A stretch of 22,198 nucleotides of DNA, taken from contig CAYRPF010000054.1 in the NCBI GenBank assembly GCA_964426185.1, forward strand, positions 1 through 22,198. Direction: 5' to 3'. Shown here piece after piece: positions 1 through 15,944 of this stretch (within the stretch, counting starts at the first letter, position 1; each line of letters starts with the position of its first letter). The position numbers and the translations under genes are program-made. Below the pieces are notes generated by a model. The model worked only from the letters and a program-made list of their open reading frames with translations. It was not told the origin of the DNA and ran no database searches. The DNA is from an uncultured archaeon (GTDB taxonomy: Archaea > Asgardarchaeota > Lokiarchaeia > Sigyniarchaeales > Promethearchaeaceae).

Positions 1-32
1 TTTAGATGATTTAAAGATGGATTTAAGATGGA
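1..32. repeat. Degenerate 9-12 bp tandem repeat spanning the stop codon of the first gene
   Basis: tttagatga tttaaagatgga tttaagatgga; may continue beyond the window edge. Confidence 0.5.
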
Positions 33-1279
33 ATAATTACTTTAATCTTGATATCTTTGTCGGTTTCAACCTTAATCGCATTCTGCAATTCTTCTCTATC
101 GTTTTTAACTTTTTTAAGTAATTCTGAGTAATCCCTGCGATATCGAGATACATCATTTTCAAAATGTTCCAAATCCAGTGTAGCAATCGAAATTTTTTCT
201 TTTAAATCATTTCGTTGTGATTCCAACCCTTTAGATTTCATTTTATTTTGAATTTTCTCCTTCTTCTCCATTAATTCCAGAATTTTCCTAATATCGTCTT
301 CTAATGCGTTATTAGAAACAATTTCGTTTATATTTTCAATAATGCGATTTTTTAAGTCTGATTTTAATTGGAGATAATCTCTTTCATCTTCCAGCAAAAT
401 ACGTGTTTTAATCAATAATTGGCGCAAATGGGGGATTTTCGGACCCTCTTTTAATATTTCTGATACTGGATCTTTTAAATATGGTTTTAAATCATATTCT
501 GAAATATCACGGAGCGTTATGGTGCCTTTTTCAAGGGATTTCTTCATCTTTTTGAAGGCCTTACTGAATTTGAGATTTTCCCTGAAATCACGTTTAAGTA
601 GTTCTAATTCATGTTCTATTTTTTGAAATTCTTGCAAATCGGGGTCTTCATTTAATTGTTCAAGTTCTGCTTCTTTTCTTTGTAGATTTTCTTTCATGCT
701 CTTAAATGTGTCTTCTAATTCGTCTAATTTCTTTTTTGTGGTTGCTAAGCGTTCAATATTATTATTAAGTAGAGGAATTCGTTTAATTAATTGTTCCGCT
801 TCTTTTCCATCTTGGTAATTCTTCAAGATAAATTTATTGATTTTTTGATTGTAATTTCCGATTTTTCGTAAATGAAGATCAATTTCTTTAATTTCTAATT
901 TGAATTCTTTGTAAAATCGGCGCATCGTCTTTTTACCTTGGGCATTATAAGTCATATAGACTTTTTTAACTCCGTCGTTAAATTTCTGACAAGCGTCATA
1001 AGAAATTGAAGTGTGTACAGTGGGGATTTCCAATTCATCCAATGAATTTAGCACTGATTCAATAAACCGGTCCATGATCTTTTTGGTTTTTTCATCTAAA
1101 TTTTCACCATCGCTATCAGGAGTGTGATTCCGCCAAGCTTTTAGTGAGTTTTTGGCTTGAGCGACTTCTTCGGAAATTTTTGTGTAAATTTTACCAAGTA
1201 GTTTATGTTCTCTCTTAAAGCGTTCTTGTAATTGTTTTAAATACCAAGCTTCAAGTTCTGCTAAATTCACTTCTGTCAT
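23..1279 (-). CDS. Hypothetical helical, coiled-coil-rich protein (418 aa)
   Basis: Long ORF with ATG start, K/E/L-rich with heptad stretches (e.g. KKKLDELEDTFKSMKENLQRKEAELEQLNE). TATA-like TTTTTATATT about 32 nt upstream. No Walker A or other catalytic motif recognised. Confidence 0.85.
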   Translation of the reverse strand: MTEVNLAELEAWYLKQLQERFKREHKLLGKIYTKISEEVAQAKNSLKAWRNHTPDSDGENLDEKTKKIMDRFIESVLNSLDELEIPTVHTSISYDACQKFNDGVKKVYMTYNAQGKKTMRRFYKEFKLEIKEIDLHLRKIGNYNQKINKFILKNYQDGKEAEQLIKRIPLLNNNIERLATTKKKLDELEDTFKSMKENLQRKEAELEQLNEDPDLQEFQKIEHELELLKRDFRENLKFSKAFKKMKKSLEKGTITLRDISEYDLKPYLKDPVSEILKEGPKIPHLRQLLIKTRILLEDERDYLQLKSDLKNRIIENINEIVSNNALEDDIRKILELMEKKEKIQNKMKSKGLESQRNDLKEKISIATLDLEHFENDVSRYRRDYSELLKKVKNDREELQNAIKVETDKDIKIKVIIPS

Positions 1280-1310
1280 AGGTCACAATCAGTATGAATA
1301 ATTCACCGCA

Positions 1311-1320
1311 ATATAAAAAA
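1311..1320 (-). promoter_or_regulatory. Putative TATA box for the 23..1279 gene
   Basis: Minus strand TTTTTATATT about 32 nt upstream of ATG 1279. A small palindrome TGAAT-A-ATTCA (1295-1305) lies between the box and the start. Confidence 0.4.
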
Positions 1321-1358
1321 CTATTATGAAAATTATTAGTAATTTAAAAGGAAGCAAA

Positions 1359-3155
1359 TTAGTTTTCTGATTTTCGAATAAATTCTCTTAATGCCTCCAT
1401 ATCGATACCTAAATAGCCTTGTTCTGCATATTCAGGTGATCTAATCCGCATCATGGATTTATCTTCGTCACTAATAAATAACATACCCTTTTTCAGAAAT
1501 CCATTTATATAATTATGAAATTCCAATTTATCTTGAATTAAATCTTCAGATGGTTGTTCATCGTAGGTATGAATCAGTGGGGCGCTATTTTCATCAGCGT
1601 GCATTCCTTTCATTCCCACAAAAAGGGCGCCTAATGTGGCAATAAAGGGTAATTGGTGCACCATGTCGCTCATTTTCAAAAATGCTTGAATATTTTTAGC
1701 AGAAAGGTATTCTGAAAATAAATCAATATTGAATCCAAAACAACAACTATAATGGGTGTTTTGGGCTTTCTCAATTCCTTCTTTAATTATTTTTAAGCGA
1801 GTGAATTTATTTGTAGGTGAAGTTCGAAACAACTCCTTGTAATCTGCGGTATTCAATAATTTCATGGAATAATTCTGCCCGTCGTATTTCATTTCTGCCA
1901 GGGCTTCATATGGTTTGTTTTCATCTTTAATATTATCTTGATAGGTGACAATAAGGATGTTACCAAAGTATCGGGTCATAGTTTTAAATGCATTAGAGAT
2001 TTCGGTTATTCCTGAACCCAATTCAAGTCCGAACAATTTCAAAAAGGAATTTAATAGTGAATCTGGATAATAAGTTGCTGAAAACACTAATTCAAATAAA
2101 CTGGTTAAAAATTCAAACATTCCCATGTCTGAGTTACGAAATCGTGTGAAGTATTTCCAGAAATCCTGTGTTTCTAATATTGCGGTGCGTATTCCTGTTT
2201 TTTTATAGATGTTTTTACCAATATCAAGTAATGATTTTTCTGGAGTTAACAAATCTTTGAATATATGATTGGGTAAGGCCGTTAATTTCATTTGGTTGTG
2301 ATCTACCATCATTTTTACTCCAAACAATAAGTTCTTATGATCATTAGAAACCAGCACAAAATTCATGGTAAGATCATCCAAAAGCGTGGTAATAATTGTG
2401 GACCATTGTTGTAAATCCACGTTGTTCCAAGAGATAATCCATTTTTTTATTGTTTGAAAAATTTTGGGATTTTTGATATTTTGTGAGAGAAAATAGTAAA
2501 TGTCATTATTGGATTCTTCTTGAAAACCTTTTAAAATCGGATTTTTCCAGCTAAGAATTCTAGAAATTGCCAAAAGGGTATTAGTATTGAATGATGGTAG
2601 ATTTAATGAAGCAATATCGGATTTTATCGACCAAGGAATTATAAAAGGATAGACTTTTTCAAAACCATAATTTTTGGAAAAATATTCATTAACAAAAGGT
2701 GCAATTGATTGTTTTTGATACATTATTTCTTGAAGTTTTAAAATAAATTCATCCCTTTCCTCAAATTCTCTTAAAAATTCCACTTCACTCTGTAAAAAGG
2801 ATCGGTTTACTTTCTTTTCATCTTCATCTAGAATTTGCTCAATATGAAATAAGAATCCATCTAGTAATTGCAATGATTTATCTACAAACATGAAAAAGAC
2901 ATGTTGAAATGGGATTTTTTCATATAAAAAATTCAATATATGGTAAATTTGGGTTAAGTTCCATGAAATTGGTAAACCCGAGTAAAATATTTTGGGAATT
3001 GAAACTTTCTCAAAAGGATTCAATGCAATTCTGTTAAAAATTTGACTTGAAAGTTCTACAGATTTGTGAAATTTCTGAATATCTTTTGAAATCACACTTT
3101 TTTTCATGTTCATATTCAAATCGTTATAAGAAATCCGTAAAAAACCTTTTTTCAT
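1359..3155 (-). CDS. Hypothetical protein (about 580-598 aa; true start may be ATG 3113 or 3107)
   Basis: Uninterrupted 1.8 kb ORF in AT-rich DNA, no recognised motif. A start at 3155 leaves only 42 bp to the divergent gene, so a downstream ATG is plausible. Confidence 0.8.
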   Translation of the reverse strand: MKKGFLRISYNDLNMNMKKSVISKDIQKFHKSVELSSQIFNRIALNPFEKVSIPKIFYSGLPISWNLTQIYHILNFLYEKIPFQHVFFMFVDKSLQLLDGFLFHIEQILDEDEKKVNRSFLQSEVEFLREFEERDEFILKLQEIMYQKQSIAPFVNEYFSKNYGFEKVYPFIIPWSIKSDIASLNLPSFNTNTLLAISRILSWKNPILKGFQEESNNDIYYFLSQNIKNPKIFQTIKKWIISWNNVDLQQWSTIITTLLDDLTMNFVLVSNDHKNLLFGVKMMVDHNQMKLTALPNHIFKDLLTPEKSLLDIGKNIYKKTGIRTAILETQDFWKYFTRFRNSDMGMFEFLTSLFELVFSATYYPDSLLNSFLKLFGLELGSGITEISNAFKTMTRYFGNILIVTYQDNIKDENKPYEALAEMKYDGQNYSMKLLNTADYKELFRTSPTNKFTRLKIIKEGIEKAQNTHYSCCFGFNIDLFSEYLSAKNIQAFLKMSDMVHQLPFIATLGALFVGMKGMHADENSAPLIHTYDEQPSEDLIQDKLEFHNYINGFLKKGMLFISDEDKSMMRIRSPEYAEQGYLGIDMEALREFIRKSEN

Positions 3156-3197
3156 TTTCTTACGAAAATCTAAAAATTACAAATACTTAATAATATT

Positions 3198-4364
3198 ATG
3201 AATTCAGTTTCTGGTTCACCGCTTCCAAACGAAATTTCGGAGATTCTAATAAAAAATTATCAAACATTACTGCAAAATCCGAAGCCAGAAGATGAAGAAC
3301 GAATTCACACTGAAATGATTGAAATTTTCAAAAAATTAGTTATAAATTCTCAACCAGATACTGAATTTCAACATAAATGTGAGATCATTCAAGAATTAAT
3401 TGAAGCATGGGAGCCTTTGGATTATTGGTTTGTAGAACTTCCTGAATTGCCTATCATATTACGCGATTTTTTAATAGATTTTGCTAATTTTAAGCCATTT
3501 TCTGAGAAGAAAGCCTTGCTTCCCCGCGAAGGAGCCAAGATTCTTTCTAAAAATCTTGTCAAAGATGGAGATCTTAATATTTCTCTGGAGGATGATGAAG
3601 AAGAAAAATCAATTACTCCCGAAGAATCTAATCGAATAAATAAACGAATCGAACAATTACAAGAACGGATGAAGCATTTAAAACAAAAATTTACTCCCAA
3701 AGATACCAATCGTTCGTTAAATATTCCTTCTATTCCAAAATCTGGTGGAATTCAAAAAAATGTAAAAAAAAATTTAACCCCTCCTAAAATAATAATTCCT
3801 CAAGAAGATCTGAATCATTCTTTTGCACCTTCTATAGAGCTTTCAGACAATATCTTATCTATTGAGAAAAAACCCACTTCTAGTGAAATAGAAAATACTG
3901 CAGAAATACCAGATAAAAAACCAAATGAAAAATCAACAGTAAAATTAACAGAAAAATCTGCAAACAATCCTATAAAATTTCATACTCGGGAAGAAATCGA
4001 TGAAATATTGGACTTAGAGCAAATACATTCAGATGGATCGAAACTTTTAACCCAAATTTTTGTGAAAAACGCTGCAAATCCCCAAAACCCAGATATAATT
4101 TTGAAGGATGTTTTTGATCAGTCAAATTTCGAACAACTGGAGAAGAAAACTGAAGAACAAATTGATCCGGAATTATTATATCAAGAACTATTAAGATTTC
4201 GTGGTAAGCTGACTCATTTACAGTTGAAGTATCAACAATTAAAAGAAACCTATAAAAAAGGGGAATTACCAGAGGAAAGGTTTAAGGTGTATCTTGAGCA
4301 AAATCAAAGTCAGATAGAAGAAATAAAAACTAAAATTTCTCATATTGAACGTAACCTTTTTTGA
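3198..4364 (+). CDS. Hypothetical protein: N-terminal helical domain, coiled coil, low-complexity Pro/Ser/Lys linker, C-terminal helical hairpin
   Basis: 388 aa ORF with RINKRIEQLQERMKHLKQ coiled coil, a PPKIIIP-type linker and C-terminal LKETYKKGELPEERFKVYL helix-turn-helix hairpin. Confidence 0.82.
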   Translation: MNSVSGSPLPNEISEILIKNYQTLLQNPKPEDEERIHTEMIEIFKKLVINSQPDTEFQHKCEIIQELIEAWEPLDYWFVELPELPIILRDFLIDFANFKPFSEKKALLPREGAKILSKNLVKDGDLNISLEDDEEEKSITPEESNRINKRIEQLQERMKHLKQKFTPKDTNRSLNIPSIPKSGGIQKNVKKNLTPPKIIIPQEDLNHSFAPSIELSDNILSIEKKPTSSEIENTAEIPDKKPNEKSTVKLTEKSANNPIKFHTREEIDEILDLEQIHSDGSKLLTQIFVKNAANPQNPDIILKDVFDQSNFEQLEKKTEEQIDPELLYQELLRFRGKLTHLQLKYQQLKETYKKGELPEERFKVYLEQNQSQIEEIKTKISHIERNLF

Positions 4365-4471
4365 AATTCACTATTTTCGCAAGAGTTTAAAAAGATTTAA
4401 AAAGATTTTTTCCGAAAGATTTTTTTGAATGAGAAGCTTATCACCTATACAGATAAGATAGAGGATTGGCA

Positions 4472-4876
4472 ATGTCAAAAACTGAATTTATGACCGCTAT
4501 TGAAACCGCATTTGATGAGGGTCTTCCTTTTATTGATTTTACTGAATTTTATACCTATGCCTTAATTCCCAAAGGAGACAAATATCTTGAGATTTCCTAT
4601 GATTTTGAAGATCATGAAATAATGGAAAATCGAACACTTGATCCAGCGAAAGCGTATTTTAATTTTTGCGAAGAAGTGGAGAAGGCTTTAGCAGAAGAAT
4701 TAGAAATTTTTTATCTTAATAAATGGCGCGATTTTAAAAACTCTTTATCCGGGAATGAAGCAGCAAAATTACCAAAATTGATAGAAGAGTTAGTAAATAA
4801 TACAGATACATATGGTAATGATATTCCTGTTATAAAAAGTCCAGAAGATCTAGCCAAATTGAAGGAAAAATTATAG
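4472..4876 (+). CDS. Small acidic hypothetical protein (134 aa)
   Basis: ATG 4472 preferred over TTG 4466 because the SD-like GAGGA at 4461-4465 is 6 nt upstream of it. Globular-looking composition. Confidence 0.8.
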   Translation: MSKTEFMTAIETAFDEGLPFIDFTEFYTYALIPKGDKYLEISYDFEDHEIMENRTLDPAKAYFNFCEEVEKALAEELEIFYLNKWRDFKNSLSGNEAAKLPKLIEELVNNTDTYGNDIPVIKSPEDLAKLKEKL

Positions 4877-4977
4877 ATAATTATCTCTGAAATCCTTGAT
4901 TTCTCTATATAAATTTTACCTGAAAGATTTTTTCAAAAATTTTCTCTTAACAAATATTCAAGGAGAAGGAATAAATC

Positions 4978-5457
4978 ATGTCAGAGCCAGAACCCATTGG
5001 AAAAATCATGCGAAAAATAAAGAAAAAATGGGATAAAGATCCTGAAGGATGGTCCGTATTTGGGAATGTTGATAGAGATGGAAATCGTGAAATGTTCATC
5101 AATCAAGCACCTAACAGTTATTGGTTGAAAATGCGCACCATCACTGCTCATAATCAGATGGCATTTGGAAAAGAACTACGGAATATTGATGATGAAATAA
5201 ATCAGAAAATTGGTGGAAGGCATAATCAGAAAAAAATTCAGAGTAAAGAAGAATTATTGCAAATTTTCGCATTAATGACCCCGTCTGAGAAAGAATATCT
5301 ATATACTGCCGGTGTAGAGCGATTTTCGCCTAAATTTGTCGAATCTCACAAAATGAAAATTGAAGAAAAAGAAACAGATGCAGATAAGCTTTATCGATTA
5401 TATTTACGAAAAAAATGGCAACGAGAACAAGAAATGCGGGAAAATATGTATCTTTAA
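4978..5457 (+). CDS. Hypothetical protein (159 aa)
   Basis: ATG preceded by AGGAGAAGGA, with TATATAAA at 4906-4913. The WDKDPEGWSVFG ... RNIDDEI pattern recalls an uncharacterised archaeal family (recollection, unverified). Confidence 0.8.
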   Translation: MSEPEPIGKIMRKIKKKWDKDPEGWSVFGNVDRDGNREMFINQAPNSYWLKMRTITAHNQMAFGKELRNIDDEINQKIGGRHNQKKIQSKEELLQIFALMTPSEKEYLYTAGVERFSPKFVESHKMKIEEKETDADKLYRLYLRKKWQREQEMRENMYL

Positions 5458-11950: not shown

Positions 11951-12346
11951 TTATAGCTTTTTATAATTCTTACCGCTATACTTGTCAATCGGGTACTTCT
12001 TTCCATTACTTTGTATTTTCTTGAGAATAACTTCAGTAAAATTAGGTAGATTCAAAGCATTGACCAAATTTATCAAGTAAATAAAAATATCGGCCATTTC
12101 ATCAGTTATTGGTGATAATTCCTGTGAAATTTCATCATCTTGTTTAAACAAGAAATTTTCCAGAAGTTCAGCCGCTTCGATAGAAATTGCCTCTGATAAA
12201 GCACGGGGTGTATGATAAGATTCCCAATTTCGCTCCACCACAAAATCCTTTAGTATTTTTCGAAAGTTTTCGATAGTGTAATTATTATCATTAGGTGAAT
12301 TCTGTAGAAGAATATCATCTGATTTATCCGAAATCTTATTATTCAT
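11951..12346 (-). CDS. MazG-like nucleotide pyrophosphohydrolase (DCTPP1/RS21-C6-like)
   Basis: FVVERNWESYHTPRALSEAISIEAAELLENF and DEMADIFIYL (ExxE...ExxD all-alpha NTP-PPase), plus NGKKYP. ATG 12346 (8 bp overlap with the MTase end, purine-rich AGGGAAAG upstream) preferred over 12376. Confidence 0.88.
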   Translation of the reverse strand: MNNKISDKSDDILLQNSPNDNNYTIENFRKILKDFVVERNWESYHTPRALSEAISIEAAELLENFLFKQDDEISQELSPITDEMADIFIYLINLVNALNLPNFTEVILKKIQSNGKKYPIDKYSGKNYKKL

Positions 12347-13775
12347 TTTTCTTTCCCTTGTAGGAGTATTTTCCACAAATTTTTAAAACTTTTTCCACAT
12401 TTTCGGTTTTTATATACTGATCGAAACGAATTTTTTCATCGGAGTTCATTAAAAGTAGAGGACAAGTCTCAATTATTTTACGAGCTTGGGACAATCCGAA
12501 ATATTTTCTGATATAATCTCCTGATGAATACTTATATGATGTTAAAAATTCGCTATCACTTTCTGAACGTAGATATTCTAATATAAAATTAACATATTCT
12601 CTCAAAAGTTCTTGATCTTTAAGAGAAATAGGTGTATCAAAAAAAATTTGTATGGGGTTTGTTCGATAAGTGTTTTTTGTTACCATTATCCCATTTACTT
12701 TAAAACTCGCATTAATATTATATAACCCTGCTCGGCCCTCCCAAGTTCCGGTGTCTACGGTTCGTACCCACAATTGGTTGGCTAAAATCTTTTGTTTCAT
12801 TTTCTTATTTACATAAATGACAGTTTTTTCATAGGAATTTCCAATAAAACGGTTGGCATCTATAACTTTTATGCTATAATTGCCAAAATTTTTTTTCACT
12901 TCTAATTTTTGTAGATAATAATGAATTTTAAGTGGATTGTGCGATTTAAATTTTTCAACAAATTCTTCAAAGTGGGTTCCTGCGCGGTAATGATATTTTG
13001 GATGGAGAATAAAGTGTTTTTGAGATTTTTTAGTATTAATTTTAACCGCATCGAATTCAGATTTCTCAGGATTGTATGATTTCTTTCGTTTAAAGAAAAA
13101 AATACCCACATTCATTCCAGTGAAATCGAAAATTGGTTTTTCATATATGTATGCGTGTTCAATTTTATATAAAGGTAAAAAATCATCTCTAATTTTATTA
13201 GATACGGAATTTCCAAAAATGAAATTTGTTGGGATTAAGTAGATCATGCGATCAGTAGAATTTCTTAAGTCATTCATTAAGGCAATCTGATATAGATCTT
13301 GATACCCTTTATTTTTTCCTTGAAAATAGGCTAAATGGCTTTTTGTGTGCGAATTTTTGGCGATATAGCCTAAATACAAGTATGGAGGATTTGTAATATG
13401 AAATAGCGGCTTTGAATTAATTTTTTCTTGTTCAAGGATCTTTGGGGGATAAGATTTTAATGAATCCCAGAGAAAAATGTTATTTCTTGCAATTTCTTCT
13501 GGAATTTCATATTTCTTTGCGTTGTTGATAATTTCTTCTACGCATTTTTGTTGAATATCACAAAGAAAAATATGATTTTGAAAAAATTTCACTCGTTCAG
13601 ACTTTGGTATATATTCAAGTATGGGTAAAACTAAATTTCCTGCCCCAGCAAATAAGTCCACCCAAATATATTGATTTAAGTGGGATTTTATTCTGGGAAA
13701 TATCAATTCATGAAAAATATGGGTGGAAGTAAAATGTTGACCATATTTTCTACGATGGTTTGCAATGGAATTCAT
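12339..13775 (-). CDS. Amino (N6-adenine/N4-cytosine) DNA methyltransferase, gamma-type motif order
   Basis: Motif X YGQHFTS, motif I WVDLFAGAGNL, motif IV ITNPPY, then DLYQ, YLIPTNF and IFDFTG, followed by a putative target-recognition region. ATG 13775 directly follows TTG 13778. Confidence 0.88.
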   Translation of the reverse strand: MNSIANHRRKYGQHFTSTHIFHELIFPRIKSHLNQYIWVDLFAGAGNLVLPILEYIPKSERVKFFQNHIFLCDIQQKCVEEIINNAKKYEIPEEIARNNIFLWDSLKSYPPKILEQEKINSKPLFHITNPPYLYLGYIAKNSHTKSHLAYFQGKNKGYQDLYQIALMNDLRNSTDRMIYLIPTNFIFGNSVSNKIRDDFLPLYKIEHAYIYEKPIFDFTGMNVGIFFFKRKKSYNPEKSEFDAVKINTKKSQKHFILHPKYHYRAGTHFEEFVEKFKSHNPLKIHYYLQKLEVKKNFGNYSIKVIDANRFIGNSYEKTVIYVNKKMKQKILANQLWVRTVDTGTWEGRAGLYNINASFKVNGIMVTKNTYRTNPIQIFFDTPISLKDQELLREYVNFILEYLRSESDSEFLTSYKYSSGDYIRKYFGLSQARKIIETCPLLLMNSDEKIRFDQYIKTENVEKVLKICGKYSYKGKKNE

Positions 13776-13793
13776 CAAATATCACAAATAAAA

Positions 13794-14567
13794 TTAAAAT
13801 TTGAAAATTCGGCTAAACAAATCTTGATCTCTCGACATCAGCATGGTATCTGGAGAAATTTTTTGAGAAGTAAAAGAAACTGGGGCATCTTTTACCAATA
13901 CGAAAGGAGTCTGTTCATCACACTCTCCCATCAAAAGATGAGCAACATCTGTAATTTGATCCGCCAAAGCACGTGTGGTCCACTTCATTTCATGACCGAA
14001 AAGATCACATCTTCCCCGACAGTCATCCACCGGCTTAAATCCAGCCACTCCAATAGCAACTCCTACGATACCTCGACGGAGTGGTTGAACTCGTGAATCG
14101 GAAATAATCACACCAAATTCATTCAATTGATATTTTTCCTTTATTTTTTTGCAGAGATCTTCCGCTACTCCAAATGGATCGACAGGCCATAAGGAATATT
14201 CTCCTTCACCTCCCGCATTAGATTGGTCTATGCCGGCATTGGCGATTAAAATACCAGATTTCACAGTGAAAAGCATTCCAGGTATGCCACCTATAATTTC
14301 ATCAGATTCTTGAAGAACCAATTGGGCAAAAGCGGGTTCTACTTCAAATTCTGATGACCATTGAACTGCATTTGGTGTAATATTAGTGATATCCGATAAT
14401 TTTATAATTCGGTTTTGGGTGGTACTTACAACAGTTTCGGCAATCACTATTATTGAACGTTCTTGAGGAATTTGTAAATGTAATTCAAAAGTTTCACATA
14501 GAACCTCGAAAAGATTTTCTCCCGGTTTTATAATATGGGATGCTTTTAATCCAATTGCTTCTACCAT
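13794..14567 (-). CDS. cofE: CofE-family (COG1478) gamma-glutamyl ligase: F420-0:L-glutamate ligase or folate-type FolC2
   Basis: IIVIAETVVS, ANAGIDQSN, GVIISDS-x-x-x-PLRRG, GVAIGVAG, DLFG, ADQI, LLMGE..EQTP. Strong SD AGGAGG at 14575-14580. Confidence 0.9.
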   Translation of the reverse strand: MVEAIGLKASHIIKPGENLFEVLCETFELHLQIPQERSIIVIAETVVSTTQNRIIKLSDITNITPNAVQWSSEFEVEPAFAQLVLQESDEIIGGIPGMLFTVKSGILIANAGIDQSNAGGEGEYSLWPVDPFGVAEDLCKKIKEKYQLNEFGVIISDSRVQPLRRGIVGVAIGVAGFKPVDDCRGRCDLFGHEMKWTTRALADQITDVAHLLMGECDEQTPFVLVKDAPVSFTSQKISPDTMLMSRDQDLFSRIFKF

Positions 14568-14600
14568 TACTTTTCCTCCTTCATATTTATTCCTTCATTT

Positions 14601-15944
14601 TTATTCCTTTATTTCTTTTTCATATGGCTTAAAATTTATTTTGGGCGTTCTATTTTGCGTTAAAACCTCTTCAATCATGGTTCCTATCCGTTTCATTTCT
14701 AAATCTTGTGATTTCAATTTACTTACCAATTTTTTTAACTGTAAAGGTGTTCCCATAACGATCGCTGTGAACTGTTTAGTGTATTTATGATATTCAGTAG
14801 TAATAACATCTTTATGCAGTGCGACATCGCCACCCCGTGCTAACATTTCTTGTTTTAGGATTAATGCTTGCGGAGCGGTTAATTTATCAATCTGTATTAA
14901 GTTGGTAGACATTTTCTGCTTCATAATGTTGGTTCCTCCATTAGAAACCCCTATTCTATGAAGAAATACTTCAGCTGCAGTCGAATTCCGAAAAGGAGGA
15001 AGTAAAGTTGTTCTTTGATTCTCTGTGCTTGTTGTGATAATTTTTTTTCTCAAAGCGGAGGCCATTTGAACCATTTCATAGAGTTGTGAAGTTATTTGAT
15101 GTGCCCGAATAATATGAGCTCCATTAAAAACTGCGATTGAGGTGGCAGCCAAACTTCCGTTTAATCTTTCATTCGGGTCTTTTTTTCCCAATACTGAACC
15201 GATAAACGATTTTCGTGAAAGACCAATCAAAATAGGGGAACGAAGTGCACGTAAATCTTCTAAATTATGTAACATTTCTAAATCATATTCGAAAGTTTTC
15301 TCGCTGACCCATTTTCCTATGCCAGGATCAACAATAACTTGATCTAAAGGATATTTCTCATTATCTAAATCATCCATTGTCGATGAGAGTGAAGTAAGTA
15401 TTTCTGTAATGTCTTTAGCATCGCCGGGTTTCTTCATTGTAGCCATTAAACATACCGGAACCTTATGACTTATCACAAAATTCTTCATTTTATTATCTGT
15501 GTGAAAGGAAGATATATCATTTACCAAGAAAGGAATATCATATGGCGCAGCTAGTTTGAAAGCCAATTCGGCAACTTCAGAGTATTGTGTATCGATAGAT
15601 AACACAGTTTCTTTGGGTATATGCGGTAGTGCCACCATTAAGGCTTGTTCAACACGAGTGAGTTCTTCATCTAAGGAAATTGGTTCTGACCAAGGTGCAG
15701 TAGATCTTGCACCGAAATCCAAAAATGTGGCTCCATTTGCCAAATCTTGCTTTATTTGGGGAAGGATTTGTTCTTTAGAAATATAAGATTCCTTAAAGAA
15801 ACTTTCTGGACTTAGATTTATAATTCCCATTAAGTGAACGGGAGTGAGATCCCCAACTGGAATGCGATCTGCTAATTTTGATTGAATAAATGCCATAATG
15901 AATACTATAGCTTCCACTCTTTTTGGATTTTTTTTCTCGCTCAT
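14601..15944 (-). CDS. folP: Dihydropteroate synthase with C-terminal dihydropteroate-reductase(Prd)-like domain
   Basis: MGIINLSPESF, DFGARSTAP, SIDT, VNDIS, VDPGIG, GLSRKSFI and GAHIIRAH, plus about 130 extra C-terminal residues containing ALILKQEMLARGGD. Alternative start at ATG 15896. Confidence 0.92.
   Translation of the reverse strand: MSEKKNPKRVEAIVFIMAFIQSKLADRIPVGDLTPVHLMGIINLSPESFFKESYISKEQILPQIKQDLANGATFLDFGARSTAPWSEPISLDEELTRVEQALMVALPHIPKETVLSIDTQYSEVAELAFKLAAPYDIPFLVNDISSFHTDNKMKNFVISHKVPVCLMATMKKPGDAKDITEILTSLSSTMDDLDNEKYPLDQVIVDPGIGKWVSEKTFEYDLEMLHNLEDLRALRSPILIGLSRKSFIGSVLGKKDPNERLNGSLAATSIAVFNGAHIIRAHQITSQLYEMVQMASALRKKIITTSTENQRTTLLPPFRNSTAAEVFLHRIGVSNGGTNIMKQKMSTNLIQIDKLTAPQALILKQEMLARGGDVALHKDVITTEYHKYTKQFTAIVMGTPLQLKKLVSKLKSQDLEMKRIGTMIEEVLTQNRTPKINFKPYEKEIKE

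What the first reader, a model, noticed from the sequence alone, without database searches (positions are those of the whole stretch)
13794..15944. Candidate two-gene FolA/FolC-independent tetrahydrofolate module: DHPS-reductase fusion plus CofE-type ligase
Seen: folP and a COG1478/CofE gene are co-oriented 33 bp apart with a strong SD, no other F420 gene (cofC/D/G/H) is in the window, and the run continues into the purine genes. Known: Helicobacter FolP and haloarchaeal FolC-Prd-FolP use a flavin-dependent Prd domain to reduce dihydropteroate and bypass DHFR, and the chlamydial CofE homologue (CT611, FolC2) glutamylates folate in place of FolC. Inference: these two genes could make dihydropteroate, reduce it to tetrahydropteroate and add glutamate, giving H4-folate without FolA or FolC. 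The default F420 ligase annotation would then be wrong or incomplete. A methanopterin/sarcinapterin-like pterin product is an alternative.
Basis: partly seen in the sequence, partly recalled or inferred. Interest (0 to 1): 0.75.

Follow-up and report, generated by a model that had tools for sequence, protein, structure and literature searches.

The report
Asgard folate genes bypassing FolA, FolC
An Asgard archaeon that lacks the usual last two folate-synthesis enzymes, and the whole coenzyme F420 pathway, keeps a dihydropteroate synthase fused to a Helicobacter-type reductase domain, directly followed by a diverged "F420 ligase" copy that most likely adds glutamate to folate instead.

Summary

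- **folP-Prd (14601-15944, minus strand).** It encodes a folate-type dihydropteroate synthase. Its C-terminal 120 residues are homologous to the extra N-terminal domain of Helicobacter pylori FolP (hhalign 99.5%, E 9e-23). That domain is the published FolP-fused flavin-dependent dihydropteroate reductase.
- **Ligase (13794-14567).** It starts 33 nt downstream of folP, behind an AGGAGG. It is the genome's only PF01996 protein and fails NCBI's CofE equivalog cut-offs.
- **Two paralogue clades.** In a 36-protein Asgard tree the ligase falls in a clade (100/100) holding every FolP-adjacent copy. Every CofD-adjacent copy falls in the other clade.
- **What the genome lacks.** FolA, FolC, ThyA, CofC, CofD and CofG/H were not found.
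- **What the genome has.** FolE, MptD, MptE-like, FolD, Fhs, ThyX and MetH are present.
- **Phylum sample of 151 Asgard genomes.**
  - FolC and DHFR: 0.
  - Folate-type DHPS: 120.
  - FolP-type ligase: 92, of which 46 lie directly beside DHPS, in three gene arrangements.

A methanopterin product is disfavoured. Nothing has been tested biochemically. This scan reached the same ligase reading before on other Asgard and CPR genomes. What is added here is the reductase fusion, the paralogue split and the phylum-wide counts.

The parts
14601..15944 (-). folP-prd ORF (447 aa as listed; the probable true start is the ATG at 15896, giving 431 aa)
   Evidence: ORF and translation. Homologues and profile A4 begin at M17. 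The AF2 model has pLDDT 86.8, and Foldseek top hits are solved DHPS structures with TM by target 0.8-0.88.
15099..15830 (-). Dihydropteroate synthase (pterin-binding TIM barrel) domain, aa 39-282
   Evidence: PF00809 scores 149.9 bits. TIGR01496 scores 172-173 bits against a cut-off of 162.6. Motifs NLSPESF, SIDT, NDI, DPGIG, SRKSFIG and RAH align with solved DHPS. Loop 2 reads STAP instead of STRP.
14646..15005 (-). C-terminal Prd-like domain, aa 314-433 (core motif ALILKQEMLARGGDVA; K344 and K364 invariant in the family)
   Evidence: hhalign of a 90-sequence profile against H. pylori FolP aa 1-118: 99.5%, E 9e-23. BLASTP: 30% identity, E 1e-11. The family has 855 representatives at E<=1e-3. 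No Pfam or PDB sequence match. The domain model has pLDDT 94.6.
14568..14600 (-). 33-nt spacer with Shine-Dalgarno-like AGGAGG at 14575-14580, 7 nt before the ligase ATG
   Evidence: Read directly from the sequence.
13794..14567 (-). CofE-family (PF01996) gamma-glutamyl ligase of the FolP-linked clade A, 257 aa; predicted pteroate/folate:L-glutamate ligase
   Evidence: PF01996 scores 201 bits. It is below the CofE equivalog cut-offs: NF009809 184<274, TIGR01916 167<180.65. TIGR04132 scores 134. It is the only PF01996 gene in the genome. It sits in clade A with 100/100 support. Signature SDSRVQPLRRG at aa 156-166. The clade-A profile scores 376.9 bits.

Best explanation
The two genes encode the late steps of a non-canonical tetrahydrofolate pathway.
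1. The TIM-barrel part of the first protein condenses 6-hydroxymethyl-dihydropterin diphosphate with p-aminobenzoate to give 7,8-dihydropteroate. The pterin precursor would come from FolE, MptD and an MptE-like kinase encoded elsewhere in the genome.
2. Its fused C-terminal domain is homologous to the reductase part of H. pylori FolP. It uses a reduced flavin to take the product to tetrahydropteroate, so no FolA is needed. ThyX never regenerates dihydrofolate, so no FolA is needed later either.
3. The downstream CofE-family ligase activates the pteroate carboxylate with a nucleotide triphosphate (GTP by analogy with CofE). It adds L-glutamate, and perhaps further gamma-glutamates, so no FolC is needed.

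Shown here: domain homologies, gene content, the paralogue split and the conserved linkage.
Inferred: every catalytic activity, the substrate of the ligase (H2- or H4-pteroate, first or later glutamates), the flavin, and co-transcription.
For: Reductase domain:
- Homologous to H. pylori FolP aa 1-118, the only part of that protein outside the DHPS barrel.
- PMC1971073 lists H. pylori FolP as a fusion with a flavin-dependent dihydropteroate reductase.

DHPS:
- Over the TIGR01496 cut-off. This model matches in H. volcanii and M. acetivorans but not in M. jannaschii.

Demand for folate, with the usual enzymes missing:
- FolD, Fhs, ThyX and MetH are present.
- FolA, FolC and ThyA were not found.
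- FolC and DHFR: 0 of 151 Asgard genomes.

Upstream pterin steps present: FolE, MptD and MptE-like.

No F420 pathway:
- CofD, CofC and CofH/G were not found here.
- CofC and CofD were also not found in a single-contig genome of the same genus.

The ligase is a separate paralogue:
- The tree split has 100/100 support.
- Clade B passes the CofE equivalog cut-offs (285-315 bits). Clade A fails NF009809 throughout (178-224 against 274) and scores lower on TIGR01916 (164-230). Clade A also scores 106-135 on the chlamydial FolC2 model, against 75-91 for clade B.
- The loop that lines the F420 chromophore in Af-CofE (G153-C155, PMC10861534) reads GR in clade B and [TV]Q in clade A.

Linkage:
- Clade A lies beside DHPS in 46 of 92 genomes and within 5.5 kb in 55. 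This holds in co-oriented, divergent and ligase-first orders.
- 88 of 92 clade-A genomes have DHPS.

Context elsewhere:
- A Methanosarcinaceae genome has purN-glyA-folD-folP_Prd, then MTHFR-thiC-clade-A ligase.
- A Thorarchaeota genome has gcvH-gcvT beside folP_Prd-mptE.

Precedent: chlamydial COG1478 CT611 complements an E. coli folC mutant (PMC1971073).
Against: - No activity has been measured for any archaeal member.
- P0001 is the lowest-scoring DHPS of the 120 found and only 10 bits over the cut-off. Its loop 2 reads STAP where solved DHPS have STRP.
- The ligase is far below the FolC2 model cut-off (134 against 350). Chlamydial FolC2 could not be placed in the tree.
- Related families (f2, f3, f4, f14, and G005 in f1) keep FolP plus the ligase without the Prd domain and without DHFR. 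Some other reductase must exist there and could also serve here.
- The genome also has an RFAP synthase and a methanopterin-type cluster, so a second pterin cofactor is made.
- A pABA source was not examined.
- In 34 of 92 genomes, mostly family f9, the ligase is not near folP.
Confidence: 0.62

Rival explanations
1. The module serves a methanopterin-like cofactor. The DHPS-like domain condenses the pterin with RFAP rather than pABA. The Prd domain reduces the dihydro form, and the ligase adds a glutamate as in sarcinapterin-type derivatives.
For: - The genome has an RFAP synthase (240.7 bits) inside a methanopterin-type cluster.
- P0001 barely passes the DHPS equivalog cut-off, and its loop 2 is atypical.
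- C-terminal Prd-FolP also occurs in Methanosarcinaceae, which use sarcinapterin.
Against: - The mpt cluster carries its own pterin-binding enzyme, Pterin_bind + DUF4346.
- TIGR01496 does not match in M. jannaschii.
- About 33 genomes in families f5, f9, f17, f23 and f28 have DHPS plus the clade-A ligase but no RFAP synthase. These include f17, which has the same fused, co-oriented pair.
- In Methanosarcinaceae the gene sits in a purN-glyA-folD cluster. In Thorarchaeota it sits beside gcvT and mptE.
- From my own knowledge, the sarcinapterin glutamate is added by an ATP-grasp enzyme (MptN), not a CofE-type one.
Confidence: 0.1
2. The ligase and DHPS act in folate synthesis as proposed, but the C-terminal domain is not the reductase here (for example it is regulatory or structural). 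Dihydropteroate is glutamylated first, and dihydrofolate is reduced by an unidentified enzyme.
For: - Families f2, f3, f4 and f14, and G005, have FolP plus the ligase with neither the Prd domain nor DHFR. So a Prd-independent reductase exists in close relatives.
- Identity to the H. pylori domain is only 30%.
- The domain is very widespread in bacterial DHPS (over 3000 proteins), including Geobacteraceae. PMC1971073 lists Geobacter metallireducens as FolA-positive and DHFR2-negative. I did not check whether that species' FolP has the domain.
Against: - Full-length homology to the H. pylori domain, with the same conserved core and two invariant lysines.
- The domain is always fused to, or found with, DHPS.
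- The genome has ThyX, not ThyA, which is the gene set expected for organisms without FolA (PMC9931769).
Confidence: 0.15
3. The default annotation is right. The ligase is a true CofE that glutamylates F420-0 made from salvaged precursors, and its position next to folP is incidental.
For: - The best NCBIfam and PDB matches are CofE: NF009809 184 bits, and A. fulgidus CofE at E 4e-34.
- Residues aligned with the acidic residues of Af-CofE are conserved.
Against: - It is below both CofE equivalog cut-offs.
- CofC, CofD and CofH/G were not found in this genus. For CofC and CofD this includes a closed genome.
- Genomes that do make F420 carry a second, CofD-adjacent paralogue in the other clade.
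- The adjacency to DHPS recurs in 46 genomes in three arrangements.
- The chromophore-facing loop is changed.
Confidence: 0.05

Closest known systems
Helicobacter pylori FolP (HP1232): bifunctional dihydropteroate synthase / flavin-dependent dihydropteroate reductase (DHFR2; Levin et al. 2007, as cited in PMC1971073)
   Same: A DHPS barrel fused to a homologous ~115-aa domain (99.5% hhalign). The host genome lacks FolA (Table 2 of PMC1971073 for H. pylori).
   Different: - The domain is C-terminal here and N-terminal in H. pylori and most bacteria.
- Identity is 30%.
- H. pylori has FolC; this genome does not.
- Activity is untested here.
Chlamydia trachomatis FolC2 (CT611; COG1478; NCBIfam TIGR04132)
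   Same: A PF01996 protein encoded in a folate gene cluster of an organism without FolC and without F420 genes. CT611 complements an E. coli folC mutant (PMC1971073, PMC4161248).
   Different: - It scores 134 bits against the TIGR04132 cut-off of 350, so it is not a member of that tight clade.
- It belongs to an archaeal clade also present in Methanosarcinaceae.
- The relationship to FolC2 was not resolved, because no FolC2 sequence was available.
CofE, F420-0:L-glutamate ligase (A. fulgidus AF2256, PDB 2PHN/7ULD; M. jannaschii CofE)
   Same: Same fold and family, aligned end to end at E 4e-34. The mechanism is probably the same: nucleotide-dependent acyl-phosphate formation.
   Different: - It fails the equivalog cut-offs.
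- It is in a separate clade from the CofD-linked Asgard CofE.
- Where CofE has GR[CP] lining the isoalloxazine, this protein has VQP.
- The genome has no other F420 genes.
Haloarchaeal FolC-FolP fusion proteins, said to complement folA deficiency (from my own knowledge, Levin et al. 2004; not checked here)
   Same: An archaeal DHPS carrying the reductase function within one polypeptide.
   Different: Haloarchaea use a canonical FolC domain, and H. volcanii also has DHFR (controls). Here the glutamate ligase is a separate CofE-family protein.

Membership tests
Dihydropteroate synthase (TIGR01496 / PF00809) | Score over the curated equivalog cut-off | tested here: met
   172.1-173.1 bits against 162.6. 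It is the lowest of the 120 Asgard matches. The model does not match in M. jannaschii.
Dihydropteroate synthase (TIGR01496 / PF00809) | Conserved barrel motifs for pterin and pyrophosphate binding (N..PDSF, SIDT, ND, DPG.G, SRK, R.H) | tested here: met
   N43, D118, N142, D206, K245, R280 and H282 are invariant in the family alignment and align with solved DHPS. The roles of these residues are from my own knowledge.
Dihydropteroate synthase (TIGR01496 / PF00809) | Loop-2 S-T-R-P motif | tested here: not met
   P0001 reads R-S-T-A-P where solved DHPS read E-S-T-R-P. Thorarchaeota and Methanosarcinaceae forms read STAP or STWP.
FolP-fused dihydropteroate reductase (DHFR2/Prd, H. pylori type) | Domain homologous to the non-DHPS part of H. 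pylori FolP, fused to DHPS | tested here: met
   hhalign 99.5%, E 9e-23. BLASTP 30% identity, E 1e-11.
FolP-fused dihydropteroate reductase (DHFR2/Prd, H. pylori type) | N-terminal position of the domain | tested here: not met
   C-terminal here, in other Asgard genomes and in Methanosarcinaceae. It is N-terminal in 62 of the 93 full-length proteins (340 aa or more) classified.
FolP-fused dihydropteroate reductase (DHFR2/Prd, H. pylori type) | Host lacks FolA | tested here: met
   No DHFR_1 in the genome or in 151 Asgard genomes.
FolP-fused dihydropteroate reductase (DHFR2/Prd, H. pylori type) | Binds flavin and reduces dihydropteroate | not testable with these tools
   Needs protein chemistry or complementation. 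The paper with the mutagenesis data (PMC1913416) is not held.
FolC2-type folate glutamate ligase (TIGR04132) | Score over the curated cut-off | tested here: not met
   133.8 bits against 350. Clade A scores 106-135 and clade B 75-91.
FolC2-type folate glutamate ligase (TIGR04132) | PF01996 protein clustered with folate genes in a genome without FolC and without F420 genes | tested here: met
   Adjacency in 46 of 92 genomes.
FolC2-type folate glutamate ligase (TIGR04132) | Replaces FolC functionally | not testable with these tools
   Needs complementation of an E. coli folC mutant or an enzyme assay.
CofE (TIGR01916 / NF009809) | Score over the curated equivalog cut-offs | tested here: not met
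   167.1<180.65 and 184<274. CofD-linked Asgard copies score 285-315.
CofE (TIGR01916 / NF009809) | Co-occurrence with CofC, CofD and CofG/H | tested here: not met
   None found in G000. CofC and CofD were not found in G001 (single contig) or G002 either. G000 is 92% complete.
CofE (TIGR01916 / NF009809) | G-R-[CP] segment that faces the F420 isoalloxazine (Af-CofE G153-C155, PMC10861534) | tested here: not met
   P0002 has V160-Q161-P162. Clade A reads [TV]QP and clade B reads GRP.
CofE (TIGR01916 / NF009809) | Conserved acidic residues of the catalytic centre | tested here: met
   D114, D157 and E215 are invariant in clade A and align with Af-CofE D109, D150 and E208. Their metal-binding role is from my own knowledge; the structure paper is not held.

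The most novel reading that the evidence does not exclude
Asgard archaea make folate themselves by a late pathway in which no step uses the textbook enzyme. This would include the genus of the cultured Promethearchaeum, for which the literature calls folate synthesis incomplete. The steps would be MptD and MptE-type pterin enzymes, a DHPS that reduces its own product to tetrahydropteroate, and an archaeal CofE paralogue family acting as the dihydrofolate or folylpolyglutamate synthase. That paralogue family is shared with Methanosarcinales. Reduction would then come before glutamylation, the reverse of the canonical order.
Probability: 0.4. Interest if true: 0.7.

Novelty: new variant of a known kind. 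Interest (0 to 1): 0.6.

Why it matters
- **An open gap in Asgard metabolism.** Published reconstructions state that folate biosynthesis in Asgard archaea, including the cultured 'Ca. Prometheoarchaeum', appears incomplete, and they invoke cross-feeding (PMC9931769). Those papers do not mention FolP or a FolC substitute.
  - If this module works as proposed, most sampled Asgard genomes have the late folate steps. DHPS is in 120 of 151 and the FolP-type ligase in 92 of 151.
  - That would change inferences about their vitamin dependence and syntrophy.
- **A systematic annotation error.** Clade-A PF01996 proteins are labelled as F420 ligases even in genomes with no F420 pathway. This can inflate predictions of F420 use.
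- **A practical way to separate the two paralogues:** the chromophore-loop signature, the equivalog scores and the neighbouring gene.

Tried and rejected
- **Prd domain against libraries.** No Pfam match, no PDB sequence match even at E 10, and no Foldseek match at E<=0.001.
- **Possible ThyX-like fold.** VIA-align put five ThyX-family chains among the top six (Z 5.5-7.7). I tested this with hhalign of the Prd profile against a 30-sequence ThyX profile. The result was 0.3% probability. I therefore treat the resemblance as unproven fold similarity within the tool's chance range.
- **Af-CofE F92 and R234 as specificity markers.** Rejected, because they are not conserved even among CofD-linked Asgard CofE.
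- **Reference sequences for the tree.** Chlamydial FolC2, A. fulgidus CofE and M. jannaschii CofE could not be added. The tree therefore holds Asgard sequences only and is midpoint-rooted.
- **Papers not held.** Levin 2007, Nocek 2007 and de Crecy-Lagard 2012. A prior published prediction for archaeal CofE paralogues cannot be excluded.
- **Tool failure.** One fetch from genomes failed and was repeated in two parts.
- **ESM Atlas.** It only confirmed PF01996 membership.
- **Not examined:** pABA synthesis genes and F420-dependent enzymes.
- **Not run:** Complex prediction.
Full report
**What is in the sequence**

On the minus strand an ORF at 14601-15944 is followed, after 33 nt, by an ORF at 13794-14567. 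The spacer holds AGGAGG seven bases before the second ATG.

The first protein (P0001) has a Pterin_bind domain at aa 39-282. It passes NCBI's dihydropteroate synthase equivalog, with 172 bits against a cut-off of 162.6. Homologues begin at its M17, so the start is probably the ATG at 15896.

The second protein (P0002, 257 aa) is a PF01996 'F420 ligase' (201 bits). It falls below both CofE equivalog cut-offs: 184 against 274, and 167 against 180.65. It scores 134 bits on the chlamydial FolC2 model, whose cut-off is 350.

Downstream on the same strand lie an N6-methylase-like gene, a MazG-like gene, then purC, purL, purQ and purF. gyrB and gyrA diverge upstream.

Closest named relatives are 'Candidatus Harpocratesius' and Promethearchaeota, so this is an Asgard (Loki-type) archaeon.

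**The extra domain of FolP**

Residues 314-433 have no Pfam or PDB sequence match. They define a large family:
- 855 representatives at E<=1e-3 in an exhaustive search.
- More than 3000 proteins in the word-indexed search.

The full-length proteins listed carry it together with a DHPS domain (Pfam PF00809); many shorter hits of 100-250 aa, possibly fragments, were not classified. It is N-terminal in ~400-aa bacterial proteins (Clostridia, Syntrophomonadaceae, Desulfotomaculum, Geobacteraceae, Actinomycetota). It is C-terminal in Loki-type and Thor-type Asgard archaea and in Methanosarcinaceae.

I fetched H. pylori FolP through a Helicobacter 16S primer match and a genome search. Its DHPS barrel starts near residue 120. 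The N-terminal 118 residues match the domain profile at 99.5% probability, E 9e-23. They match P0001 directly at 30% identity, E 1e-11.

PMC1971073 lists H. pylori FolP as a fusion of DHPS with a flavin-dependent dihydropteroate reductase (DHFR2), citing Levin et al. 2007. So the 'DHPS-reductase fusion' is supported at the level of homology, with the domain order reversed.

AF2 models are confident: 86.8 pLDDT for the whole protein and 94.6 for the domain. The barrel matches solved DHPS structures.

**Gene content of the genome (3.26 Mb, 92% complete)**

| Not found |
|---|
| DHFR |
| FolC |
| ThyA |
| CofD |
| CofH/G above a 30-bit radical-SAM match |
| CofC |
| A second PF01996 gene |

| Present |
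|---|
| ThyX |
| FolD |
| Formate-THF ligase, 843 bits |
| MetH-like B12 methionine synthase |
| FolE type IA |
| Archaeal dihydroneopterin aldolase MptD |
| MptE-like pterin diphosphokinase |

CofC and CofD are also not found in the two other genomes of the genus. One of these is a 4.4-Mb single contig that carries the same folP-prd plus ligase pair, with 76% and 70% identity.

The organism therefore needs reduced folate and can make the pterin precursor. It lacks the textbook last two enzymes and has no use for an F420 ligase.

**The ligase is a distinct paralogue**

In a sample of 151 Asgard genomes, 138 have PF01996, many of them twice. I extracted 36 copies and built an ML tree. It splits with 100/100 support into two clades:
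- Clade A holds all 11 FolP-adjacent copies plus 7 others.
- Clade B holds all 11 CofD-adjacent copies plus 7 others.

| Measure | Clade A | Clade B |
|---|---|---|
| TIGR01916 (CofE) | 164-230 bits | 285-315 bits |
| NF009809 (CofE; cut-off 274) | 178-224 bits | 288-306 bits |
| TIGR04132 (FolC2 model) | 106-135 bits | 75-91 bits |
| Segment aligned with Af-CofE T149-G159 | [AIV]DSR[TV]QPLR[LR]G | SDT[HF]GRP[FL]REG |

In Af-CofE, G153-C155 of that segment line the front of the F420 isoalloxazine (PMC10861534). P0002 reads SDSRVQPLRRG there. The acidic residues of the catalytic centre are kept. A changed chromophore pocket on a conserved catalytic core is what a change of substrate would look like, but it does not prove one.

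**Conserved linkage**

Counts in the 151-genome sample:

| Feature | Genomes |
|---|---|
| FolC over its cut-off | 0 |
| DHFR | 0 |
| Folate-type DHPS | 120 |
| Prd domain | 29 |
| CofD over its cut-off | 99 |
| Clade A (profile A5, threshold set between the clades) | 92 |

I compared the coordinates by hand:
- Clade A lies directly beside DHPS in 46 of 92 genomes.
- It lies within 5.5 kb in 55 of 92.
- 88 of 92 clade-A genomes have DHPS.

Three gene orders occur:
- folP then ligase, co-oriented: families f1, f4, f14 and f17.
- Divergent: f3 and f21.
- Ligase then folP: f6 and f7.

tblastn on fetched loci confirms the pairs. Keeping the adjacency through rearrangements argues for a shared function.

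Outside Asgard:
- A Methanosarcinaceae genome has purN-glyA-folD-folP_Prd, and a few kb on MTHFR-thiC plus a PF01996 gene with the clade-A signature GDSRTQPMRLG.
- A Thorarchaeota genome has gcvH-gcvT beside folP_Prd-mptE.

**Folate or methanopterin?**

The genome has an RFAP synthase inside a methanopterin-type cluster. That cluster holds MptD, DUF447, DUF1464, a flavoprotein, and a Pterin_bind + DUF4346 protein. A second pterin cofactor is therefore plausible, and it has its own pterin-binding enzyme.

Three results argue that the folP-ligase module itself is not part of that pathway:
- RFAP synthase occurs in only 65 of 151 genomes.
- About 33 genomes in families f5, f9, f17, f23 and f28 have DHPS and clade A without it. 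These include f17, which has the same fused pair.
- The DHPS equivalog does not match in M. jannaschii, whose DHPS-like enzymes serve methanopterin.

Two caveats remain. P0001 is the weakest DHPS match of the sample. Its loop 2 reads STAP instead of STRP.

**Open points**

- Relatives that lack the Prd domain (f2, f3, f4, f14, G005) also lack DHFR, so an unidentified reductase exists in the group. The Prd domain's reductase role here rests on homology alone.
- It is unknown whether the ligase adds the first glutamate, later ones, or both.
- It is unknown whether its substrate is the dihydro or the tetrahydro form.
- Co-transcription could not be checked.

**Comparison with what is known, and novelty**

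Both ideas have precedents:
- FolP-fused reductase in H. pylori.
- COG1478 FolC2 in Chlamydia, which complements E. coli folC (PMC1971073, PMC4161248).

What differs here:
- The reversed domain order.
- An archaeal ligase clade that is not a member of the chlamydial model.
- Both bypasses combined in one gene pair.

The Asgard literature held here treats folate synthesis as incomplete and does not mention these genes (PMC9931769; PMC7015854 has no folate biosynthesis statement).

This scan had already reached the 'CofE-like ligase replaces FolC' reading on other Asgard and CPR genomes. The present work agrees with those notes. It adds the Prd homology test, the A/B clade split and the phylum-wide counts.

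I rate it a new variant of a known kind, with interest 0.6.

Noticed in passing
G000 contig C52:11199-21015 (locus L009:2200-12016): A methanopterin-type biosynthesis cluster. It holds an AIR-synthase-like gene, RFAP synthase, MptD aldolase, a C45 Ntn-hydrolase/acyltransferase-like gene, DUF447, DUF1464, a flavoprotein (PF02441) and a 581-aa Pterin_bind + DUF4346 protein. A bacterial-type FolE (GTP cyclohydrolase IA, 256 bits) lies close by. So the genome seems to make two pterin cofactors.
   Followed up: partly
window 14646-15005 (P0001 aa 314-433): The confident AF2 model of the Prd domain has ThyX-family chains as five of its six best VIA-align matches (Z 5.5-7.7; ThyX is a flavin- and folate-binding enzyme). 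Foldseek finds nothing, and profile-profile comparison with ThyX gives 0.3% probability. The resemblance is unproven.
   Followed up: yes
window 11951-13778, minus strand: An orphan N6-DNA-methylase-like gene (weak PF02384 match, 26 bits) starts 15 nt after the ligase stop. It overlaps a MazG-like pyrophosphatase gene. Both sit between the folate pair and purC. No restriction or specificity subunit was seen. A role for the MazG-like enzyme in dihydroneopterin triphosphate dephosphorylation is conceivable but untested.
   Followed up: no
window 15684-15704 (P0001 aa 81-87): DHPS loop 2 reads STAP(W) instead of the STRP of all solved DHPS shown. An Arg sits two residues earlier. Thorarchaeota and Methanosarcinaceae forms read STAP or STWP. 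This may affect pABA or sulfonamide binding.
   Followed up: partly
Asgard family f3 genomes, e.g. G024:C24:26944-27621 (L178:246-1676): The CofD-adjacent CofE of this family is a ~470-aa fusion protein. This fits the 'dual functional FbiB homolog' of Lokiarchaeota mentioned in PMC8498797. These genomes carry the FolP-linked clade-A copy as well.
   Followed up: partly
Asgard families f2, f3, f4, f14 (e.g. L204-L209; G123:C1:17991-19538): In these families FolP lacks the Prd domain and no DHFR is found, yet the clade-A ligase stays adjacent. The enzyme that reduces dihydropteroate or dihydrofolate in these genomes is unidentified.
   Followed up: partly
L211:3138-12321 (Methanosarcinaceae MAG GCA_021106765.1): A folate island in a methanogen-family genome: purN, glyA, folD, folP with C-terminal Prd, DUF5981, then MTHFR, thiC and a clade-A PF01996 ligase. 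The clade is therefore not confined to Asgard.
   Followed up: partly
window 23-5457: Five ORFs (418, 598, 388, 136 and 159 aa) have no Pfam match. Several are lysine- and glutamate-rich and look like coiled coils.
   Followed up: no
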